Origin: Escherichia coli
GTDB taxonomy: Bacteria; Pseudomonadota; Gammaproteobacteria; Enterobacterales; Enterobacteriaceae
NCBI RefSeq assembly: GCF_016026235.1
Contig: NZ_CP065613.1
Reading direction: 5' to 3' (one strand)
DNA: 64,000 bases
Below are positions 60,201-64,000 of this stretch, piece after piece. Numbering within the stretch: position 1 is the first letter of the stretch; the number at the start of each line of letters is the position of its first letter. Made by a program: the position numbers.

Positions 60201-63200
60201 GGCGGCAGTGCGGAAAACGCAGCGAAACGCGGGCACCTGACCGCAAGTACCGTTATTCAGTATCGCGGCGCGATTATCCCGCGTGAGGCGATGCCGGAAT
60301 AATGGTTTTTGACGGAGAACGGGTAGATATTCGTTCTCCGTTAATAGTTACAGCAGTACACTATCAGCCTGTTGATAATCGTAATGCCGTAACAATATGC
60401 CATCTTGCAAAAGGATTTTTGCAGCTTCACTTCTTCTGATCGGCCTGGGCTACGGGCTGCATATTTTATTTACCCCCTCACAACCGCTTCGCTTTGATCA
60501 GCAAGTCTATATCTGGCAACGCGTCTGGACGGCAGAACATCACGAGGCACTCAAACGAAGCCGCCCGCTTTTCTCTACGCTGCGCATACTTGGGATGCAA
60601 TTTCATCCGCAAGAAGGCATCCGACACTTTACGGTTAATACTTCACTTATTAAGCAAGATGGTCGCCCGGTCTGGCTGGTCGCGCGACTCGATGGCCAGC
60701 TTACACGGTTTAATAACCAGCAAATTATCCAGCATATTCAACAGACCCTACGTGAGTGGCAAAAGGCAGGTATTACGCTGGCAGGGGTGGAAATTGATTA
60801 TGACGCGCCAACAGCAAAATTGCCGGAATATCTGACACTACTTAGTGCGTTACATCAGGCACTTCCTACAAATATAAAACTTAGCGTTACCGCCCTGCCC
60901 ACCTGGCTTGATTCACCACATCTCGCCCGATTATTGCGCATTGCGGACACTTCGGTTTTACAGGTACATAACGTGCTTTCGCCCGAAAAAGGCCTGTTAG
61001 ATGCCAGTCTGGCGCAGAGTTGGGTAAAGCAATATGCCAGGCAAACCACGCACCCTTTTTTCATCGCATTGCCCGCTTATGGCTCCGCACTCACCAGTGA
61101 TAATCGTGTCGAAAGCGAATCCCCGCTATACGTTGCTGATGAAATGCGAGAACTAAGTGTATCGCCACAAACGATTGCCGAGTTTATTCAATATATAGAA
61201 CAGCAACCACCGCGTGGATTACAGGGGTTGGTATGGTTTCGGCTACCGTTAGCAGGCGATCGCCGCGCCTGGTCACTGACAACACTGGAAGCCGTGATTC
61301 GACATCAACCGCTGACTCCGCGCTGGTCGTTAATAATTACTCAACATACAGACAAGCAACTTTTTGATCTGGCCTTTAAAAACAGCGGCGTAATTGATGC
61401 GCCGTTGCCAAAACAAATAATTCTGCCCAATGCAGATTGTCTATTCGCTGATGGAGCCGGTCACTATCAGGTGCAACCTGGACCATCCAGCCTGAATTTT
61501 GTGAGAGGAAGCGCCAGGCAACTGCGCGCCGGAGAAAGCAGTCCGCTGGGATGGGCGCGCTGTAATCAAAAAATTCAAGGAGAGTTTAATGTTATCCCCT
61601 AGAATATCGCGGCTTTCCGTTATTGTATTTCTCTCACTAATTAGCGCCAACGTTAATGCCTGTGGACCATTTATTCCTAACCATCTGTTAACTGACCGCA
61701 ATAGCGCACTGCTGGAAATGCCAAATGGCAGTTTTGTCTTTGAAGTACAACAGTTGGCTAAACGCGATCCTGGTTTACCAATATGGCATGAAAATACGCC
61801 CGCGGAGGCAACGCAGGAAAATACAGATGATGATGCTGAGCCTCCTGTGCAAAATAGGTCACTGGAAATCGCGCAAAAATTGCAGAAACCATTATCTGAT
61901 GCGCAGTGGCTGTATTATTCAGGAGCTAAGGATTTTCATCAGGGAAAATACGATAGCCCTTACTTTCAGCAATTATTAGCCTTGCCGAAAACAGAGCAAG
62001 GGGAATGGCGTCTTGCTGCGCTATATAGTCTGGCAAGAGGGGGATTTGATGCCACTGACGACAATCTCGATCTGATAATCAATAAAGGCGGCTTTAATCA
62101 GGAAATTGCTGAGCAGGCCATACAACGTTATCAGCAAATCATTGAAGAGGTCCGTAATGGCGTAGCCGATCCTGAGCAGCTCTCTCTCGCCAGTCTCGGT
62201 CAGATTGGGCATTATTATCTGAAAAAAGGTGATGTCGCGGCGGCAGTAAAAATTTATGCCCGGCAAGCGGCCCAGGGTTCGCCCTCCGGGAAAGCTTCGT
62301 TACGAATGATTTCGTTATATCTAACCAGGGAGAAAAATTTACCACTGCTGGAATCGGTTATTGATGATCCACTGGTTCAGCAACTGGTAATCGCAGAGCT
62401 CTTTATTCGTCAAGACTGGGGATATGACAGCGAAGCCTGTACTAAAGACCTTGTAGATTATACCTGTCCAACGCATCGCGACCGTTTAATTAAGTTGCTA
62501 AGTCAACACAGAGTGAAAGGGTTTAGTTATAGCGATCGACTTGCAGCGCTGGCGTATCGGGCAGGAAATTATTCGTTAGCACAAATGCTATTGCAGGATG
62601 CGCCAGAAAGTGGCTTAAGCGAATGGTTAAAAGCAAAACTGGCATTACGAGCCGGAGATATTCCACTGGCAACGCGTCACTATGCTCGCGCAGCCCCGCA
62701 GTTCCCTGCCGATGAAGTCTGGGGAAGTATGGACCCAGAAAGCCCTTATTACCATGCCGATAAAGTTACCGTCCCCTCTTGCCGTATTGCCAGTGAGCAA
62801 GCGATTTTGGCATTAAAACGCGATGATTATCTTCAGGCGACCGCATTGTTTTACCAGGCCAAAGATCTCTATTGGGCCGATTTAGCCTGGGTGGCAGAAA
62901 ACGTTTTGACCTTGTCGGAGTTACAGGCGTTTGTTGAAAAAAACGTACCGGTACCTCAGCACCCTTTAAAACCTGTAGATTTAAACAATAGCAGTTACGG
63001 TTATTATATTTCGCCAGATATCATTCCAACGGATGTTAAATTACGAGCACTATTAGGGAGACGATTAATTCGTCATGGCCAGTACCAGCAGGCCATTAAT
63101 TGGTTTGATATTCCCAATTATCGCCAGGCCGCACAAAAACTGGCTGATTTAATGGCGATAGCAAAAAATAAAAATATCCCTGATAAGCAACGCGCCCAGG

Positions 63201-64000
63201 CGCAATATGAAGCTGCGCGGCTTTTGCGTTTCAGTGGTATCGAATTGGTGGCTTATGAAATGTATCCCGATTATGCCATTTCCAGTGGGCAGTATTCAGA
63301 ACCTTTTGAATACAGCAATAACGATTACTGGATAAGTCGTAAAGAAAAACAACGTATTCGCTACGCAATCCCCACCGCTGATGATCATTTTTTGCATTAT
63401 CGCTGGCAGGCTGCGGAATGGGCCGGACAATCTGCCGATTTACTTCACCCTAAAACCCAGGCATGGGCTGCCGTGTTATGCCATGCTGCAAGTTGGGTCA
63501 GATATCCTGATCCAGAAACCGGTGCATTAATTTATCAACGCTACGTAAAAAACGGTAAAGCTTTTGACTGGGCTGCGCATTTTGGTCGTGATTGTCCAGA
63601 ACCAGTGTTTAAGAAGGATCTGAAGAAATAACCTTGCAGAAGTGAGAAGGGCTACCCTTACGGACTGGTGAAAACTGCTGACGCATATCATTCAAACTAC
63701 GCGTAAATTTAAGCGGATTCTCGCCTTTGATTTCGACTGTGACGAAAATATCGCCATTGTTGTTAAAAAAGTTAAAATAATAGTCATGCTGGTGTCGACG
63801 GTTAGTTTTAAATTGACGAAATGACAAATAGCACCGTTCGTCATAGGTAATCAAAAAATCATTTTCCCCGTACCCATTTACCATCTTGTTTTTTAAGTTA
63901 CCCTCGAAGAGAACAGAATACTTATCTCTGTCAGCAAATAATTCGGCATCCGTTTCTCGGTTGATCGTGTTTACACTAACACCAAATTCTATTTTTATTT

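What the first reader, a model, noticed from the sequence alone, without database searches (positions are those of the whole stretch)
60303..64000. Accessory cassette downstream of kdgK: two overlapping exported proteins of unknown function plus a convergent AT-rich ORF
In K-12 kdgK is followed closely by a minus-strand gene. Here there are instead two co-directional plus-strand genes (401 and 680 codons). The second has a strong RBS and starts 14 nt before the first ends, suggesting translational coupling. Both have N-terminal export signals: a membrane anchor on the first, and a signal peptide ending VNA-C (possible lipobox) on the second. The first contains a GVEIDYDAP-type acidic stretch; reading this as a TIM-barrel glycoside-hydrolase-like active site is speculative. 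A further AT-rich minus ORF overlaps the 3' end and runs off the window. I do not recognise either protein as a named family, so this pair is the strongest candidate for an undescribed envelope-associated module.
Basis: partly seen in the sequence, partly recalled or inferred. Interest (0 to 1): 0.7.

Follow-up and report, generated by a model that had tools for sequence, protein, structure and literature searches.

The report
Chitinase-like enzyme with helical partner
Downstream of kdgK this rare E. coli strain carries two translationally coupled, exported genes, a membrane-tethered chitinase-like enzyme (DUF3142 family) and an unnamed 680-residue helical-repeat partner, which recur as a pair across Proteobacteria and have not been studied as a unit.

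Summary
ORF1 (60397..61602, 401 aa) and ORF2 (61589..63631, 680 aa) overlap by 14 nt, with an AAGGAG ribosome-binding site. A convergent AT-rich ORF runs off the window end.

- **Distribution in E. coli:** the pair lies between kdgK and yhjJ in only 30 of 5426 complete genomes. K-12 has neither gene.
- **ORF2:** it has no significant Pfam match. It is a TPR-like all-helical solenoid. Its signal peptide is followed by an invariant Cys-Gly-Pro N-terminus.
- **The pair:** both genes were adjacent in 78 of 80 genomes from three proteobacterial classes. The same 14-nt overlap occurred in 66 of those 78. No third gene was conserved.

Best reading: a self-contained periplasmic unit of a membrane-tethered glycosidase, probably acting on a GlcNAc-containing glycan, and a dedicated partner. 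The substrate and the partner's role are inferred. The lipobox reading is not supported. Novelty is a new variant of a known kind; interest is moderate.

The parts
59373..60302 (+). kdgK (2-dehydro-3-deoxygluconokinase), the left boundary of the insertion. Similarity to K-12 ends at its stop codon.
   Evidence: RefSeq annotation of the 99.9% identical strain FDAARGOS_943. In most genomes the alignment stops at query position 996-998. Three-way alignment with K-12 and GMM076.
60312..60341 (.). Inverted repeat ACGGAGAACG / CGTTCTCCGT (10-nt loop) just after kdgK. It is shared by island-bearing strains and absent from K-12. It has no T-run, so it is at best a weak terminator.
   Evidence: Sequence read directly. 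Alignment with GMM076 and K-12. The terminator scan did not call it.
60397..61602 (+). ORF1, 401 aa, a DUF3142-family protein. It has an N-terminal membrane helix (residues 3-24), a (beta/alpha)8 TIM barrel (about 34-300) and a C-terminal beta-sandwich (about 310-400) with a conserved Cys348/Cys389 pair.
60790..60804 (+). Codons for E132-I-D134-Y-D136, the invariant acidic motif at the C-terminal end of barrel strand beta-4. This is the proposed catalytic centre, at the position of the GH18 D-x-D-x-E motif.
   Evidence: Invariant in 70 homologues. Strand 128-135 in the model. TfeC has Q-I-D-F-D at the aligned position. The catalytic role is inferred.
61578..61583 (+). Shine-Dalgarno sequence AAGGAG for ORF2, lying inside the 3' end of ORF1.
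   Evidence: Sequence read directly. An SD-like motif lies at the same place in 59 of 66 orthologous loci that share the 14-nt overlap.
61589..61602 (+). 14-nt overlap between the end of ORF1 and the start of ORF2 (ATGTTATCCCCTAG), the translational-coupling junction.
   Evidence: A start codon exactly 14 nt before the end of the DUF3142 stop codon, in the partner's frame, occurs in 66 of 78 loci across Gamma-, Beta- and Alphaproteobacteria.
61589..63631 (+). ORF2, 680 aa, the partner protein. It has a signal peptide (residues 1-24), a conserved mature N-terminus (CGPFIP here, CGPDFP in the family) and an all-helical TPR-like solenoid. Cys631 and Cys669 are invariant. It has no Pfam family.
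61661..61678 (+). Codons for Cys25-Gly-Pro-Phe-Ile-Pro, the predicted first residues of the mature partner.
   Evidence: In 98 distinct family sequences: +1 Cys 98/98, +2 Gly 98/98, +3 Pro 97/98, -1 Ala 96/98, and -3 Ala/Val/Ser/Gly in 90/98.
63609..64000 (-). 3' part of a convergent AT-rich gene. The full gene encodes 176 aa and continues beyond the window. It is lipoprotein-like and of unknown function. It belongs to the island but not to the two-gene module.
   Evidence: Relatives outside Escherichia are Bacteroidota proteins at 50-57% identity. The gene is shared with a different island variant, a five-small-gene array.

Best explanation
The two genes encode a self-contained, two-protein unit of the cell envelope.

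**ORF1** is held at the periplasmic face of a membrane by an N-terminal helix in E. coli and by a lipid anchor in most other species. It is a DUF3142 TIM-barrel glycosidase of the GH18-like, TfeC type. It most likely cleaves a beta-1,4-linked, GlcNAc-containing glycan, using the invariant E132/D134/D136 cluster at the end of strand beta-4. Its C-terminal beta-sandwich would serve glycan binding or partner docking.

**ORF2** is made in a fixed ratio to ORF1 through the conserved 14-nt overlap and internal ribosome-binding site. It is exported and, most probably, cut by signal peptidase I so that the mature protein begins with the invariant Cys-Gly-Pro-(Asp)-Phe-Pro. It folds into a disulfide-stabilised TPR-like solenoid of about 650 residues. 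This solenoid would bind the hydrolase and act as its scaffold, regulator or substrate presenter.

**Substrate.** The module travels alone, without transporters, regulators or catabolic genes, and the enzyme sits on a linker of only about 10 residues at the membrane surface. I therefore think its substrate is more likely one of the cell's own envelope glycans (peptidoglycan strands or a poly-GlcNAc-type polymer) than food.

**Shown:** the genes, the coupling architecture, the export signals, the fold, family membership of ORF1, the conserved pairing, and the accessory status in E. coli.

**Inferred:** catalytic activity, substrate class, physical complex formation, the partner's role, and the signal-peptidase-I cleavage.
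For: **Fold and family of ORF1**
- Pfam DUF3142, E 8.6e-77.
- AlphaFold2 gives pLDDT 94.6 with a full (beta/alpha)8 barrel and a beta-sandwich.
- A family profile hits the TfeC sequence with E 2.5e-13.
- TfeC is reported as a T6SS-delivered antifungal chitinase (PMC13008689 and PMC13162877, citing Zhu et al., Nat Microbiol 2025, doi 10.1038/s41564-025-02208-z).

**Active site**
- The 20 invariant residues include Y38, W40, W44, R97, E132, D134, D136, T165, W170, Q189, H191, Y228, W280 and F281.
- These lie at or just after the C-terminal ends of the predicted barrel strands. That is where TIM-barrel enzymes bind substrate, and the set is rich in aromatic residues, as in sugar-binding clefts.

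**Periplasmic location**
- ORF1 has a hydrophobic N-terminus. Homologues have a Cys in the lipobox column in 44 of 70 cases and a conserved Cys348/Cys389 pair.
- ORF2 has a signal peptide, and the mature protein usually has exactly four Cys.

**Functional pairing**
- The partner is adjacent in 78 of 80 genomes spanning Enterobacterales, Pseudomonas, Moraxellaceae, Xanthomonadales, Burkholderiales, Shewanella, Chromatiaceae and Rhodospirillales.
- The 14-nt overlap is identical in 66 of 78 loci, with an SD-like motif in 59 of those 66.
- The neighbourhoods differ between genera and no third gene is conserved.

**No other system nearby**
- PADLOC gave no hit for any of the three proteins and PHROGs none for ORF1 or ORF2. 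NCBIfam gave only one far-sub-threshold TPR hit for ORF2 (13 bits against a 312-bit cutoff).
- Rfam found no regulatory RNA.
Against: - No biochemical or genetic data exist for any member of this 400-residue subfamily or for the partner. One paper in the searchable library mentions DUF3142, only in a gene list.
- ORF1 is only about 21% identical to TfeC over the barrel. Its motif is E-x-D-x-D, whereas GH18 has D-x-D-x-E and TfeC has Q-x-D-x-D.
- Sequence methods do not place ORF1 in GH18. No family member reaches Pfam GH18 at E <= 0.001, and hhalign against E. coli ChiA gives E 0.24.
- The preference for an own-envelope substrate rests on negative evidence (no catabolic neighbours) and on the short tether.
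- The patchy distribution, mostly in soil, plant and insect-associated genera that meet chitin, fits a chitin-related role equally well.
- Both structure searches gave the partner only generic TPR matches, so its role is a guess.
Confidence: 0.45

Rival explanations
1. Periplasmic processing of chitin-derived oligosaccharides, for nutrition or signalling. ORF1 would be a chitodextrinase-type enzyme that trims imported chito-oligosaccharides. The partner would bind or hand over the oligosaccharides.
For: - TfeC, the only characterised DUF3142 protein I found, is a chitinase.
- The closest folds are GH18 chitinases.
- Many host genera (Serratia, Pseudomonas chlororaphis/fluorescens groups, Iodobacter, Lysobacteraceae, Shewanella) live with fungi or insects.
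Against: - No chitoporin, transporter, GlcNAc-catabolic gene or regulator is conserved next to the pair in 80 loci from 27 genus-level groups.
- The enzyme is tethered to a membrane on a very short linker, which is unusual for an oligosaccharide-trimming enzyme.
- A 650-residue solenoid is not a usual sugar-binding protein.
Confidence: 0.2
2. An exported weapon of the TfeC kind. ORF1 would be delivered to fungal or bacterial competitors to digest their walls. ORF2 would be its chaperone, adaptor or immunity factor.
For: - TfeC is reported as a T6SS4 antifungal effector.
- In E. coli the pair lies beside an array of small genes, one of which RefSeq calls a 'TriTu family immunity protein' in one strain.
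- One E. coli strain carries a hydrolase allele only 62-73% identical, next to a normal partner allele. This is a pattern seen in effector genes.
Against: - ORF1 carries a Sec-type membrane anchor or a lipobox, which T6SS cargo normally lacks.
- No T6SS, VgrG, PAAR or Hcp gene is a conserved neighbour.
- The small-gene array accompanies the pair only in Escherichia, and it occurs without the pair in 170 E. coli genomes.
- ORF2, at 680 aa with a signal peptide, is unlike typical small immunity proteins.
Confidence: 0.1
3. A non-catalytic envelope complex. The DUF3142 barrel would be a glycan-binding pseudo-enzyme, like chitinase-like lectins. The pair would have a structural or sensing role.
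For: - The GH18 catalytic Glu position is occupied by Asp, and the GH18 signature is not met.
Against: - Three acidic residues are strictly invariant at the catalytic position in 70 diverse homologues.
- TfeC shares D134 and D136 and is deposited and cited as an active chitinase.
Confidence: 0.1
4. An accessory of the neighbouring cellulose (bcs) machinery. The hydrolase and TPR protein would process or export an exopolysaccharide, as BcsZ/BcsC, PgaB/PgaA or PelA/PelB do.
For: - In E. coli the island lies about 5 kb from hmsP-bcsC-bcsZ-bcsB-bcsA.
- Synthase-dependent exopolysaccharide systems combine a periplasmic hydrolase with a TPR protein (established knowledge).
Against: - In Serratia, Klebsiella and Pseudomonas the pair lies in unrelated neighbourhoods with no synthase, and no neighbour is conserved.
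- The partner has no outer-membrane beta-barrel domain; it is all helical.
- About 5400 E. coli genomes carry this chromosomal region without the pair, and K-12 has the same flanking genes without it.
Confidence: 0.05

Closest known systems
TfeC of Yersinia pseudotuberculosis (PDB 8Y6T/9VTV; DUF3142; reported T6SS4 antifungal chitinase)
   Same: - Same Pfam family. The family profile hits TfeC with E 2.5e-13.
- Shares the I-D-x-D motif, so D134 and D136 are conserved.
   Different: - Only about 21% identical to ORF1.
- The deposited TfeC chain is 262 residues and lacks the C-terminal beta-sandwich.
- TfeC has Gln where ORF1 has the invariant E132.
- TfeC is described as T6SS cargo. ORF1 has a Sec-type membrane anchor, no T6SS neighbours and an obligate 680-aa partner.
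- The primary TfeC paper could not be read.
GH18 chitinases and GH18-fold peptidoglycan or PNAG enzymes (e.g. 3FND, SleL 4S3J, Cwp19 5OQ2, PgaB C-terminal domain 6AU1)
   Same: - An acidic triad on strand beta-4.
- Aromatic-rich catalytic face.
   Different: - 12-16% identity.
- The motif is x-G-x-E-x-D-x-D, not D-x-x-D-x-D-x-E.
- No family member reaches the Pfam GH18 model at E <= 0.001.
- hhalign against E. coli ChiA is not significant.
Periplasmic TPR partners of envelope enzymes (NlpI with MepS, LbcA with CtpA, LpoA/LpoP with PBPs, CpoB/YbgF)
   Same: - A periplasmic helical-repeat protein encoded or acting with an enzyme of cell-wall metabolism.
- YbgF TPR, LpoP, BamD and LbcA appear among the weak structural matches.
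   Different: - No sequence-family membership; the best Pfam TPR hit has i-E 0.52.
- Much longer (about 650 structured residues).
- Probably not a lipoprotein.
- Has a unique invariant CGPDFP N-terminus.
- Its interaction with the hydrolase is inferred, not shown.
Hydrolase plus TPR pairs of synthase-dependent exopolysaccharide systems (BcsZ/BcsC, PgaB/PgaA, PelA/PelB, AlgL/AlgK)
   Same: The combination of a periplasmic glycan hydrolase with a TPR protein.
   Different: No glycosyltransferase synthase, no c-di-GMP receptor and no outer-membrane porin domain were found. The pair stands alone in varied neighbourhoods.

Membership tests
Pfam DUF3142 (PF11340) | Significant match to the family HMM | tested here: met
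   E 8.6e-77, model positions 1-201 of 202, residues 88-285. All 70 aligned homologues match. RefSeq names it 'DUF3142 domain-containing protein'.
Pfam DUF3142 (PF11340) | Relationship to the solved member TfeC (8Y6T) | tested here: met
   [not shown]
CAZy/Pfam GH18 chitinases | TIM-barrel fold similar to GH18 structures | tested here: met
   [not shown]
CAZy/Pfam GH18 chitinases | Sequence membership (Pfam PF00704 match) | tested here: not met
   ORF1 has no GH18 hit. No member of 70 reaches E <= 0.001, and 4 of 70 reach E <= 0.1. hhalign of the family against E. coli ChiA gives E 0.24.
CAZy/Pfam GH18 chitinases | Catalytic signature D-x-x-D-x-D-x-E on strand beta-4 | tested here: not met
   ORF1 and its family have A/x-G-x-E132-x-D134-x-D136. 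Acidic residues occupy the equivalent positions, but the catalytic Glu is replaced by Asp. The equivalence of positions is inferred from the secondary structure, not from a superposition.
T6SS effector (TfeC-like delivery) | Encoded with or near T6SS, VgrG, PAAR or Hcp genes, and lacking a Sec signal | tested here: not met
   The neighbours are kdgK, yhjJ, dctA, pdeH and yhjG. No neighbour is conserved across 80 loci. The N-terminus is a hydrophobic anchor or a lipobox.
Tetratricopeptide-repeat (TPR) proteins (for ORF2) | Significant match to a Pfam TPR model | tested here: inconclusive
   The best hit for ORF2 is TPR_7 with i-E 0.52. Among 50 homologues, each of three TPR models reaches E <= 0.001 in only 2 members.
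Tetratricopeptide-repeat (TPR) proteins (for ORF2) | Helical-hairpin solenoid structure resembling TPR proteins | tested here: met
   [not shown]
   ORF2 has V-N-A-C. Family-wide the strict lipobox occurs in 2 of 98 sequences. Position -2 is Q/L/Y/R/H/W/N/F and position -3 is A/V/S/G, which fits an A-x-A signal-peptidase-I site in 93 of 98. The mature protein usually has four Cys, an even number.
   No signal-peptide predictor was available. The invariant Cys at +1 (98 of 98) keeps this possibility open.
Synthase-dependent exopolysaccharide secretion systems (Bcs/Pga/Pel/Alg) | Adjacent glycosyltransferase synthase and an outer-membrane porin fused to or next to the TPR protein | tested here: not met
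   No such gene is conserved beside the pair. ORF2 has no beta-barrel.
Known anti-phage defence systems | Match to a PADLOC model | tested here: not met
   No PADLOC family matched any of the three proteins.

The most novel reading that the evidence does not exclude
The pair could be a previously unrecognised, widespread two-component machine of the proteobacterial periplasm. A membrane-tethered DUF3142 glycosidase would cut the cell's own wall or envelope glycan. A dedicated solenoid partner would control it through its processed N-terminus, the invariant Cys-Gly-Pro-Asp-Phe-Pro. That N-terminus might plug the active-site cleft or form a regulatory disulfide. This would be a new class of hydrolase-regulator pair, comparable in importance to the NlpI or Lpo systems. 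The analogous pairing of short DUF3142 proteins with other secreted proteins of about 710 aa suggests the principle may hold for the whole DUF3142 family, TfeC-like proteins included.
Probability: 0.2. Interest if true: 0.7.

Novelty: new variant of a known kind. Interest (0 to 1): 0.5.

Why it matters
- **Little is known about DUF3142.** It has about 1500 sequence clusters at 50% identity. Only one characterised member was found, described in 2025.
- **A testable functional context.** Most long-form members have a fixed partner from a family with no Pfam model, made through a conserved translational-coupling junction. That gives both families a concrete hypothesis: an envelope glycosidase and its dedicated solenoid.
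- **Possible significance.** If the substrate is peptidoglycan or another envelope glycan, this would add a new enzyme-regulator pair to cell-wall biology in Serratia, Pseudomonas, Klebsiella and others.
- **Relevance to E. coli.** The pair marks a variable spot between kdgK and yhjJ that carries at least four gene-content states.
- **Caveat on TfeC.** The results raise the question of whether TfeC-type DUF3142 proteins, reported as T6SS cargo, also have secreted partners and Sec signals.

Tried and rejected
1. **GH18 membership by sequence.** Pfam on ORF1 and on 70 homologues, and hhalign against E. coli ChiA, gave no significant match. The link to GH18 therefore rests on fold only.
2. **Family libraries.** PADLOC gave no hit for any of the three island proteins. 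PHROGs gave none for ORF1 or ORF2 and two hits near E 0.07 for the third gene. NCBIfam gave only a far-sub-threshold TPR hit for ORF2 (13 bits, cutoff 312).
3. **Regulatory RNA.** Rfam found nothing in the region (E <= 1) and nothing in nine orthologous loci.
4. **Fusion proteins as Rosetta-stone evidence.** P0310 (1176 aa) and P0354 (981 aa) join DUF3142 to the partner. In P0310 the junction keeps the partner's intact internal signal peptide and sits where the 14-nt overlap lies. A frameshift or gene-calling artefact is therefore as likely as a real fusion, and I did not count them.
5. **Mobile-element boundaries.** There are no meaningful direct or inverted repeats at the island ends and no integrase or transposase. 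One strain has a secondary IS5 insertion.
6. **Plasmid carriage.** The pair was found on only one replicon, a 508-kb Xanthomonas sacchari plasmid.
7. **A conserved third gene.** Clustering of all flanking ORFs from 80 loci found none shared across genera.
9. **Homology between the partner and the ~710-aa neighbours of short DUF3142 genes.** hhalign gave E 0.011 and probability 3.8%, so homology is not shown.
10. **The primary TfeC paper.** It is not in the library. Searches for 8Y6T/9VTV and PF11340 found nothing useful.
11. **The lipobox reading of ORF2.** Rejected on family statistics.
12. **Promoter and terminator scan.** Promoter-like sites were no more frequent than in shuffled sequence, and no convincing terminator lies after ORF2.

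
Full report
**1. What is in the sequence**

The ORF scan finds ORF1 at 60397..61602 (+, 401 aa) and ORF2 at 61589..63631 (+, 680 aa). They overlap by 14 nt. AAGGAG lies at 61578..61583, 5 nt upstream of the ORF2 ATG. kdgK ends at 60302 and is followed by a 10-bp-stem inverted repeat at 60312..60341.

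A minus-strand ORF begins its overlap with ORF2 at 63609 and leaves the window. In strain FDAARGOS_943, which is 99.9% identical over 59300..64000, it is a 176-aa gene.

GC content falls from 0.52-0.57 in kdgK to 0.42-0.51 across the two ORFs and 0.375 over the last gene.

**2. Status in E. coli**

- Of 5426 complete E. coli genomes, 5421 match the kdgK part of the query, but only 30 hold the two ORFs. All 30 copies are chromosomal.
- In K-12, kdgK is followed after 95 unrelated bases by yhjJ.
- In the three island-bearing E. coli genomes whose context I examined (FDAARGOS_943, SMS-3-5 and 2013C-4282) and in Escherichia sp. E1V33, the pair lies at this same site between kdgK and yhjJ.
- The locus has at least four states:
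  - empty, as in K-12 and most strains;
  - five small minus-strand genes only, in 170 genomes, e.g. GMM076;
  - ORF1, ORF2 and one small gene, as in the window, FDAARGOS_943 and SMS-3-5, a state that accounts for 28 of the 30 by match extent and allele identity;
  - all seven genes, in 2013C-4282 and inferred for one further strain.
- No repeats, integrase or transposase mark the boundaries.
- The alleles are unusually divergent: one at 99.8%, 27 near 95% and two near 86% identity.

**3. ORF1**

*Family and fold.* ORF1 matches Pfam DUF3142 with E 8.6e-77. An exhaustive search finds 1528 clusters at 50% identity with E <= 0.001, of which 325 have E <= 1e-30. Most of the best 150 are about 400 residues long.

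With a 70-sequence alignment, AlphaFold2 gives pLDDT 94.6 and pTM 0.89. The model has three parts:

| Part | Residues |
|---|---|
| N-terminal helix | 3-24 |
| (beta/alpha)8 barrel | about 34-300 |
| Beta-sandwich | about 310-400 |

*Link to TfeC.* The sequence link is significant: phmmer gives E 9.5e-5 and the family profile gives E 2.5e-13. Two reviews describe TfeC as a chitinase effector of T6SS4 that kills Candida albicans, citing Zhu et al., Nat Microbiol 2025. The primary paper is not held in the library.

*Proposed active site.* Twenty residues are invariant in the 70 homologues. They include E132, D134 and D136 in the GVEIDYD stretch, together with many aromatic residues. In the model they sit at the C-terminal ends of the barrel strands, which is the catalytic face of TIM-barrel enzymes. 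TfeC has Q-I-D-F-D at the same place.

*Not GH18 by sequence.* Sequence methods do not put the family in GH18, and the GH18 signature D-x-x-D-x-D-x-E is not met. The protein is a member of DUF3142 and resembles GH18 in fold only.

**4. Location of ORF1**

The E. coli protein has a 19-residue hydrophobic stretch with no obvious cleavage site, so I read it as a signal anchor. In the family alignment, 44 of 70 sequences have a Cys in the lipobox column, in contexts such as LLAGC, LSAC and LLAAC. Only about 8-15 residues separate that Cys from the first barrel strand. Cys348 and Cys389 in the beta-sandwich are present in 69 of 70 sequences, as expected for a periplasmic disulfide.

**5. ORF2**

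*No family.* No Pfam family matches at E <= 0.001. The single NCBIfam hit is far below its cutoff. RefSeq calls the protein either 'tetratricopeptide repeat protein' or 'hypothetical protein'. The word-indexed search finds 113 relatives down to 26% identity, none with an informative name.

*N-terminus.* This is the notable feature. In 98 distinct sequences the pattern is:

| Position | Residues |
|---|---|
| -3 | A/V/S/G in 90 of 98 |
| -2 | highly variable, led by Q, L, Y, R, H, W, N and F |
| -1 | Ala 96 of 98 |
| +1 | Cys 98 of 98 |
| +2 | Gly 98 of 98 |
| +3 | Pro 97 of 98 |
| +4 | Asp 64 of 98 |
| +5 | Phe 86 of 98 |
| +6 | Pro 90 of 98 |

A strict lipobox occurs in 2 of 98 sequences, and an A-x-A pattern in 93 of 98. 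Most mature proteins have exactly four Cys. These are C25, C398 (40 of 50), C631 and C669 (both 50 of 50). An even number fits two disulfides better than a lipidated Cys plus three others.

I therefore favour signal-peptidase-I cleavage, leaving Cys as the first mature residue. No signal-peptide predictor was available, so this remains open. What the CGPDFP end does is unexplained.

**6. The pair is the unit**

A scan of one genome per species (100,044 species) found 392 genomes encoding a relative of ORF1, and the best 80 loci were kept. Profiles of both proteins were run on all ORFs of those loci.

- The partner is adjacent in 78 of 80 loci.
- It is immediately downstream on the same strand in 77.
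- It is upstream in Saezia.
- It is duplicated in one Enterobacteriaceae genome.
- It is fragmented in one Serratia rubidaea assembly.
- It is absent in Hafnia paralvei and Tahibacter harae.

The hosts span Enterobacterales, Pseudomonas, Moraxellaceae, Xanthomonadales, Burkholderiales, Shewanella, Chromatiaceae, Iodobacter and Rhodospirillales.

In 66 of the 78 loci a start codon (44 ATG, 12 TTG, 10 GTG) lies exactly 14 nt before the end of the DUF3142 stop codon, in the partner's frame. An SD-like motif lies upstream in 59 of those 66.

The neighbourhoods differ: panZ-like/rpoH in Serratia, iap/cas3 in Klebsiella, and a glycosyltransferase cluster in one Pseudomonas. After removing shadow ORFs, no flanking gene family is shared across genera. 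The pair is therefore a self-contained, translationally coupled module.

**7. Mechanism**

I commit to the following. ORF1 is an active glycosidase of the TfeC/GH18-like type, tethered at the periplasmic face of a membrane. ORF2 is a soluble periplasmic solenoid made in step with it, which binds it as scaffold, regulator or substrate presenter.

*Substrate class.* The substrate is most likely a beta-1,4 GlcNAc-containing glycan. The evidence is that TfeC is a chitinase and that the nearest folds act on chitin, peptidoglycan cortex, peptidoglycan and PNAG.

*Own envelope glycan or imported chitin fragments.* This cannot be decided in silico. Two points favour an envelope glycan:
- no transporters, regulators or catabolic genes accompany the pair;
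- the tether to the membrane is very short.

One point favours chitin: the lifestyle of many host genera.

I put 0.45 on the envelope-glycan version and 0.2 on chitin-oligosaccharide processing. The weapon, pseudo-enzyme and bcs-accessory readings get 0.1, 0.1 and 0.05. Each is discussed with its refuting result in the rival explanations.

**8. The third gene and its array**

The AT-rich 176-aa gene has a lipoprotein-like N-terminus and matches no family. Its relatives outside Escherichia are from Bacteroidota (Riemerella, Tenacibaculum, Cyclobacteriaceae, Aureispira) at 50-57% identity. It is the first gene of the five-small-gene array. RefSeq names one member of that array a TriTu-family immunity protein in one strain. 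None of the five proteins matches NCBIfam. The array accompanies the module only in Escherichia, so I treat it as a separate passenger at the same variable site.

**9. Comparison with the known, and novelty**

ORF1 is a new, structurally extended member of a family whose only characterised member I found has a different delivery context. ORF2 belongs to a family with no model and no literature. The fixed pairing and its conserved junction are not described in the searchable literature.

The general design, a periplasmic glycan hydrolase with a helical-repeat partner, is familiar from cell-wall and exopolysaccharide biology. I therefore rate it a new variant of a known kind.

It is not very surprising to a specialist. 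It is, however, a clean and widely distributed module with obvious experiments, so I score interest at 0.5.

Noticed in passing
window 60270..61608; locus L090 2899..4107: In E. coli 2013C-4282 the DUF3142 gene is only 62-73% identical in DNA to the window copy. The flanking kdgK (93-100%) and the partner gene (89-98%) are at normal identity, and the break points coincide with the gene's ends. Two deeply divergent hydrolase alleles therefore share one partner allele within the species.
   Followed up: partly
window 63609..64000 (-); full gene at L001 19310..19840: The AT-rich 176-aa lipoprotein-like gene has no family match. Its closest relatives outside Escherichia are Bacteroidota proteins (Riemerella, Tenacibaculum, Aureispira, Cyclobacteriaceae) at 50-57% identity, which suggests transfer between phyla.
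   Followed up: partly
L090 6066..8243; L003 4975..7203 (same site as window >63609): An array of five small minus-strand hypothetical genes lies between kdgK and yhjJ in 170-200 of 5426 E. coli genomes, usually without the DUF3142 pair. RefSeq calls one copy a 'TriTu family immunity protein'. None of the five matches NCBIfam. With the other variants, the locus has at least four gene-content states.
   Followed up: partly
L009 (Escherichia sp. E1V33) against window 59370..64000: Identity is mosaic. kdgK is 92.5% and pdeH 88.6% identical to the window, but the partner gene is 97.1% and the small gene 99.1% identical, and from about 62360 onward identity is 98.7-100%. This points to recent recombination between an E. 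coli lineage and a cryptic Escherichia clade.
   Followed up: partly
L091 4516..7399 (Burkholderia pyrrocinia); L092 3779..6663 (Novosphingobium sp.): Short DUF3142 proteins (235-260 aa) have a Q-I-D-F-D motif as in TfeC and carry a signal peptide or lipobox. They lie immediately downstream of a secreted hypothetical protein of about 710-722 aa. The short DUF3142 is clearly homologous to ORF1 (hhalign probability 98.5%). The large neighbour is not detectably homologous to ORF2 (E 0.011, probability 3.8%), although both of these neighbours align at the same Y..GA.AF motif of the partner profile. The DUF3142 family may generally work with a large secreted partner.
   Followed up: partly
L032, L057, L081, L020, L084: Exceptions to the standard pair: two tandem partner copies in Enterobacteriaceae bacterium B14, a partner split into three ORFs in Serratia rubidaea NCTC12971, the partner upstream in Saezia sanguinis, and no partner within 7 kb in Hafnia paralvei and Tahibacter harae.
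   Followed up: no
Alignment A4, column of ORF1 residue 137: In 42 of 70 homologues a Cys directly follows the proposed catalytic Asp136 (consensus EIDHDCAT). The E. coli protein has Ala there. The meaning is unknown.
   Followed up: no
NZ_CM143899.1 (E. coli E22), hit H56: In this strain the match to the pair is split in two by an IS5-like ISKpn26 element, so the module is probably inactivated there.
   Followed up: no
P0310 (1176 aa) and P0354 (981 aa): Database proteins fuse DUF3142 to the partner in one reading frame. In P0310 the partner's signal peptide is kept in the middle of the chain. These are probably frameshifts at the 14-nt overlap rather than true fusions.
   Followed up: partly
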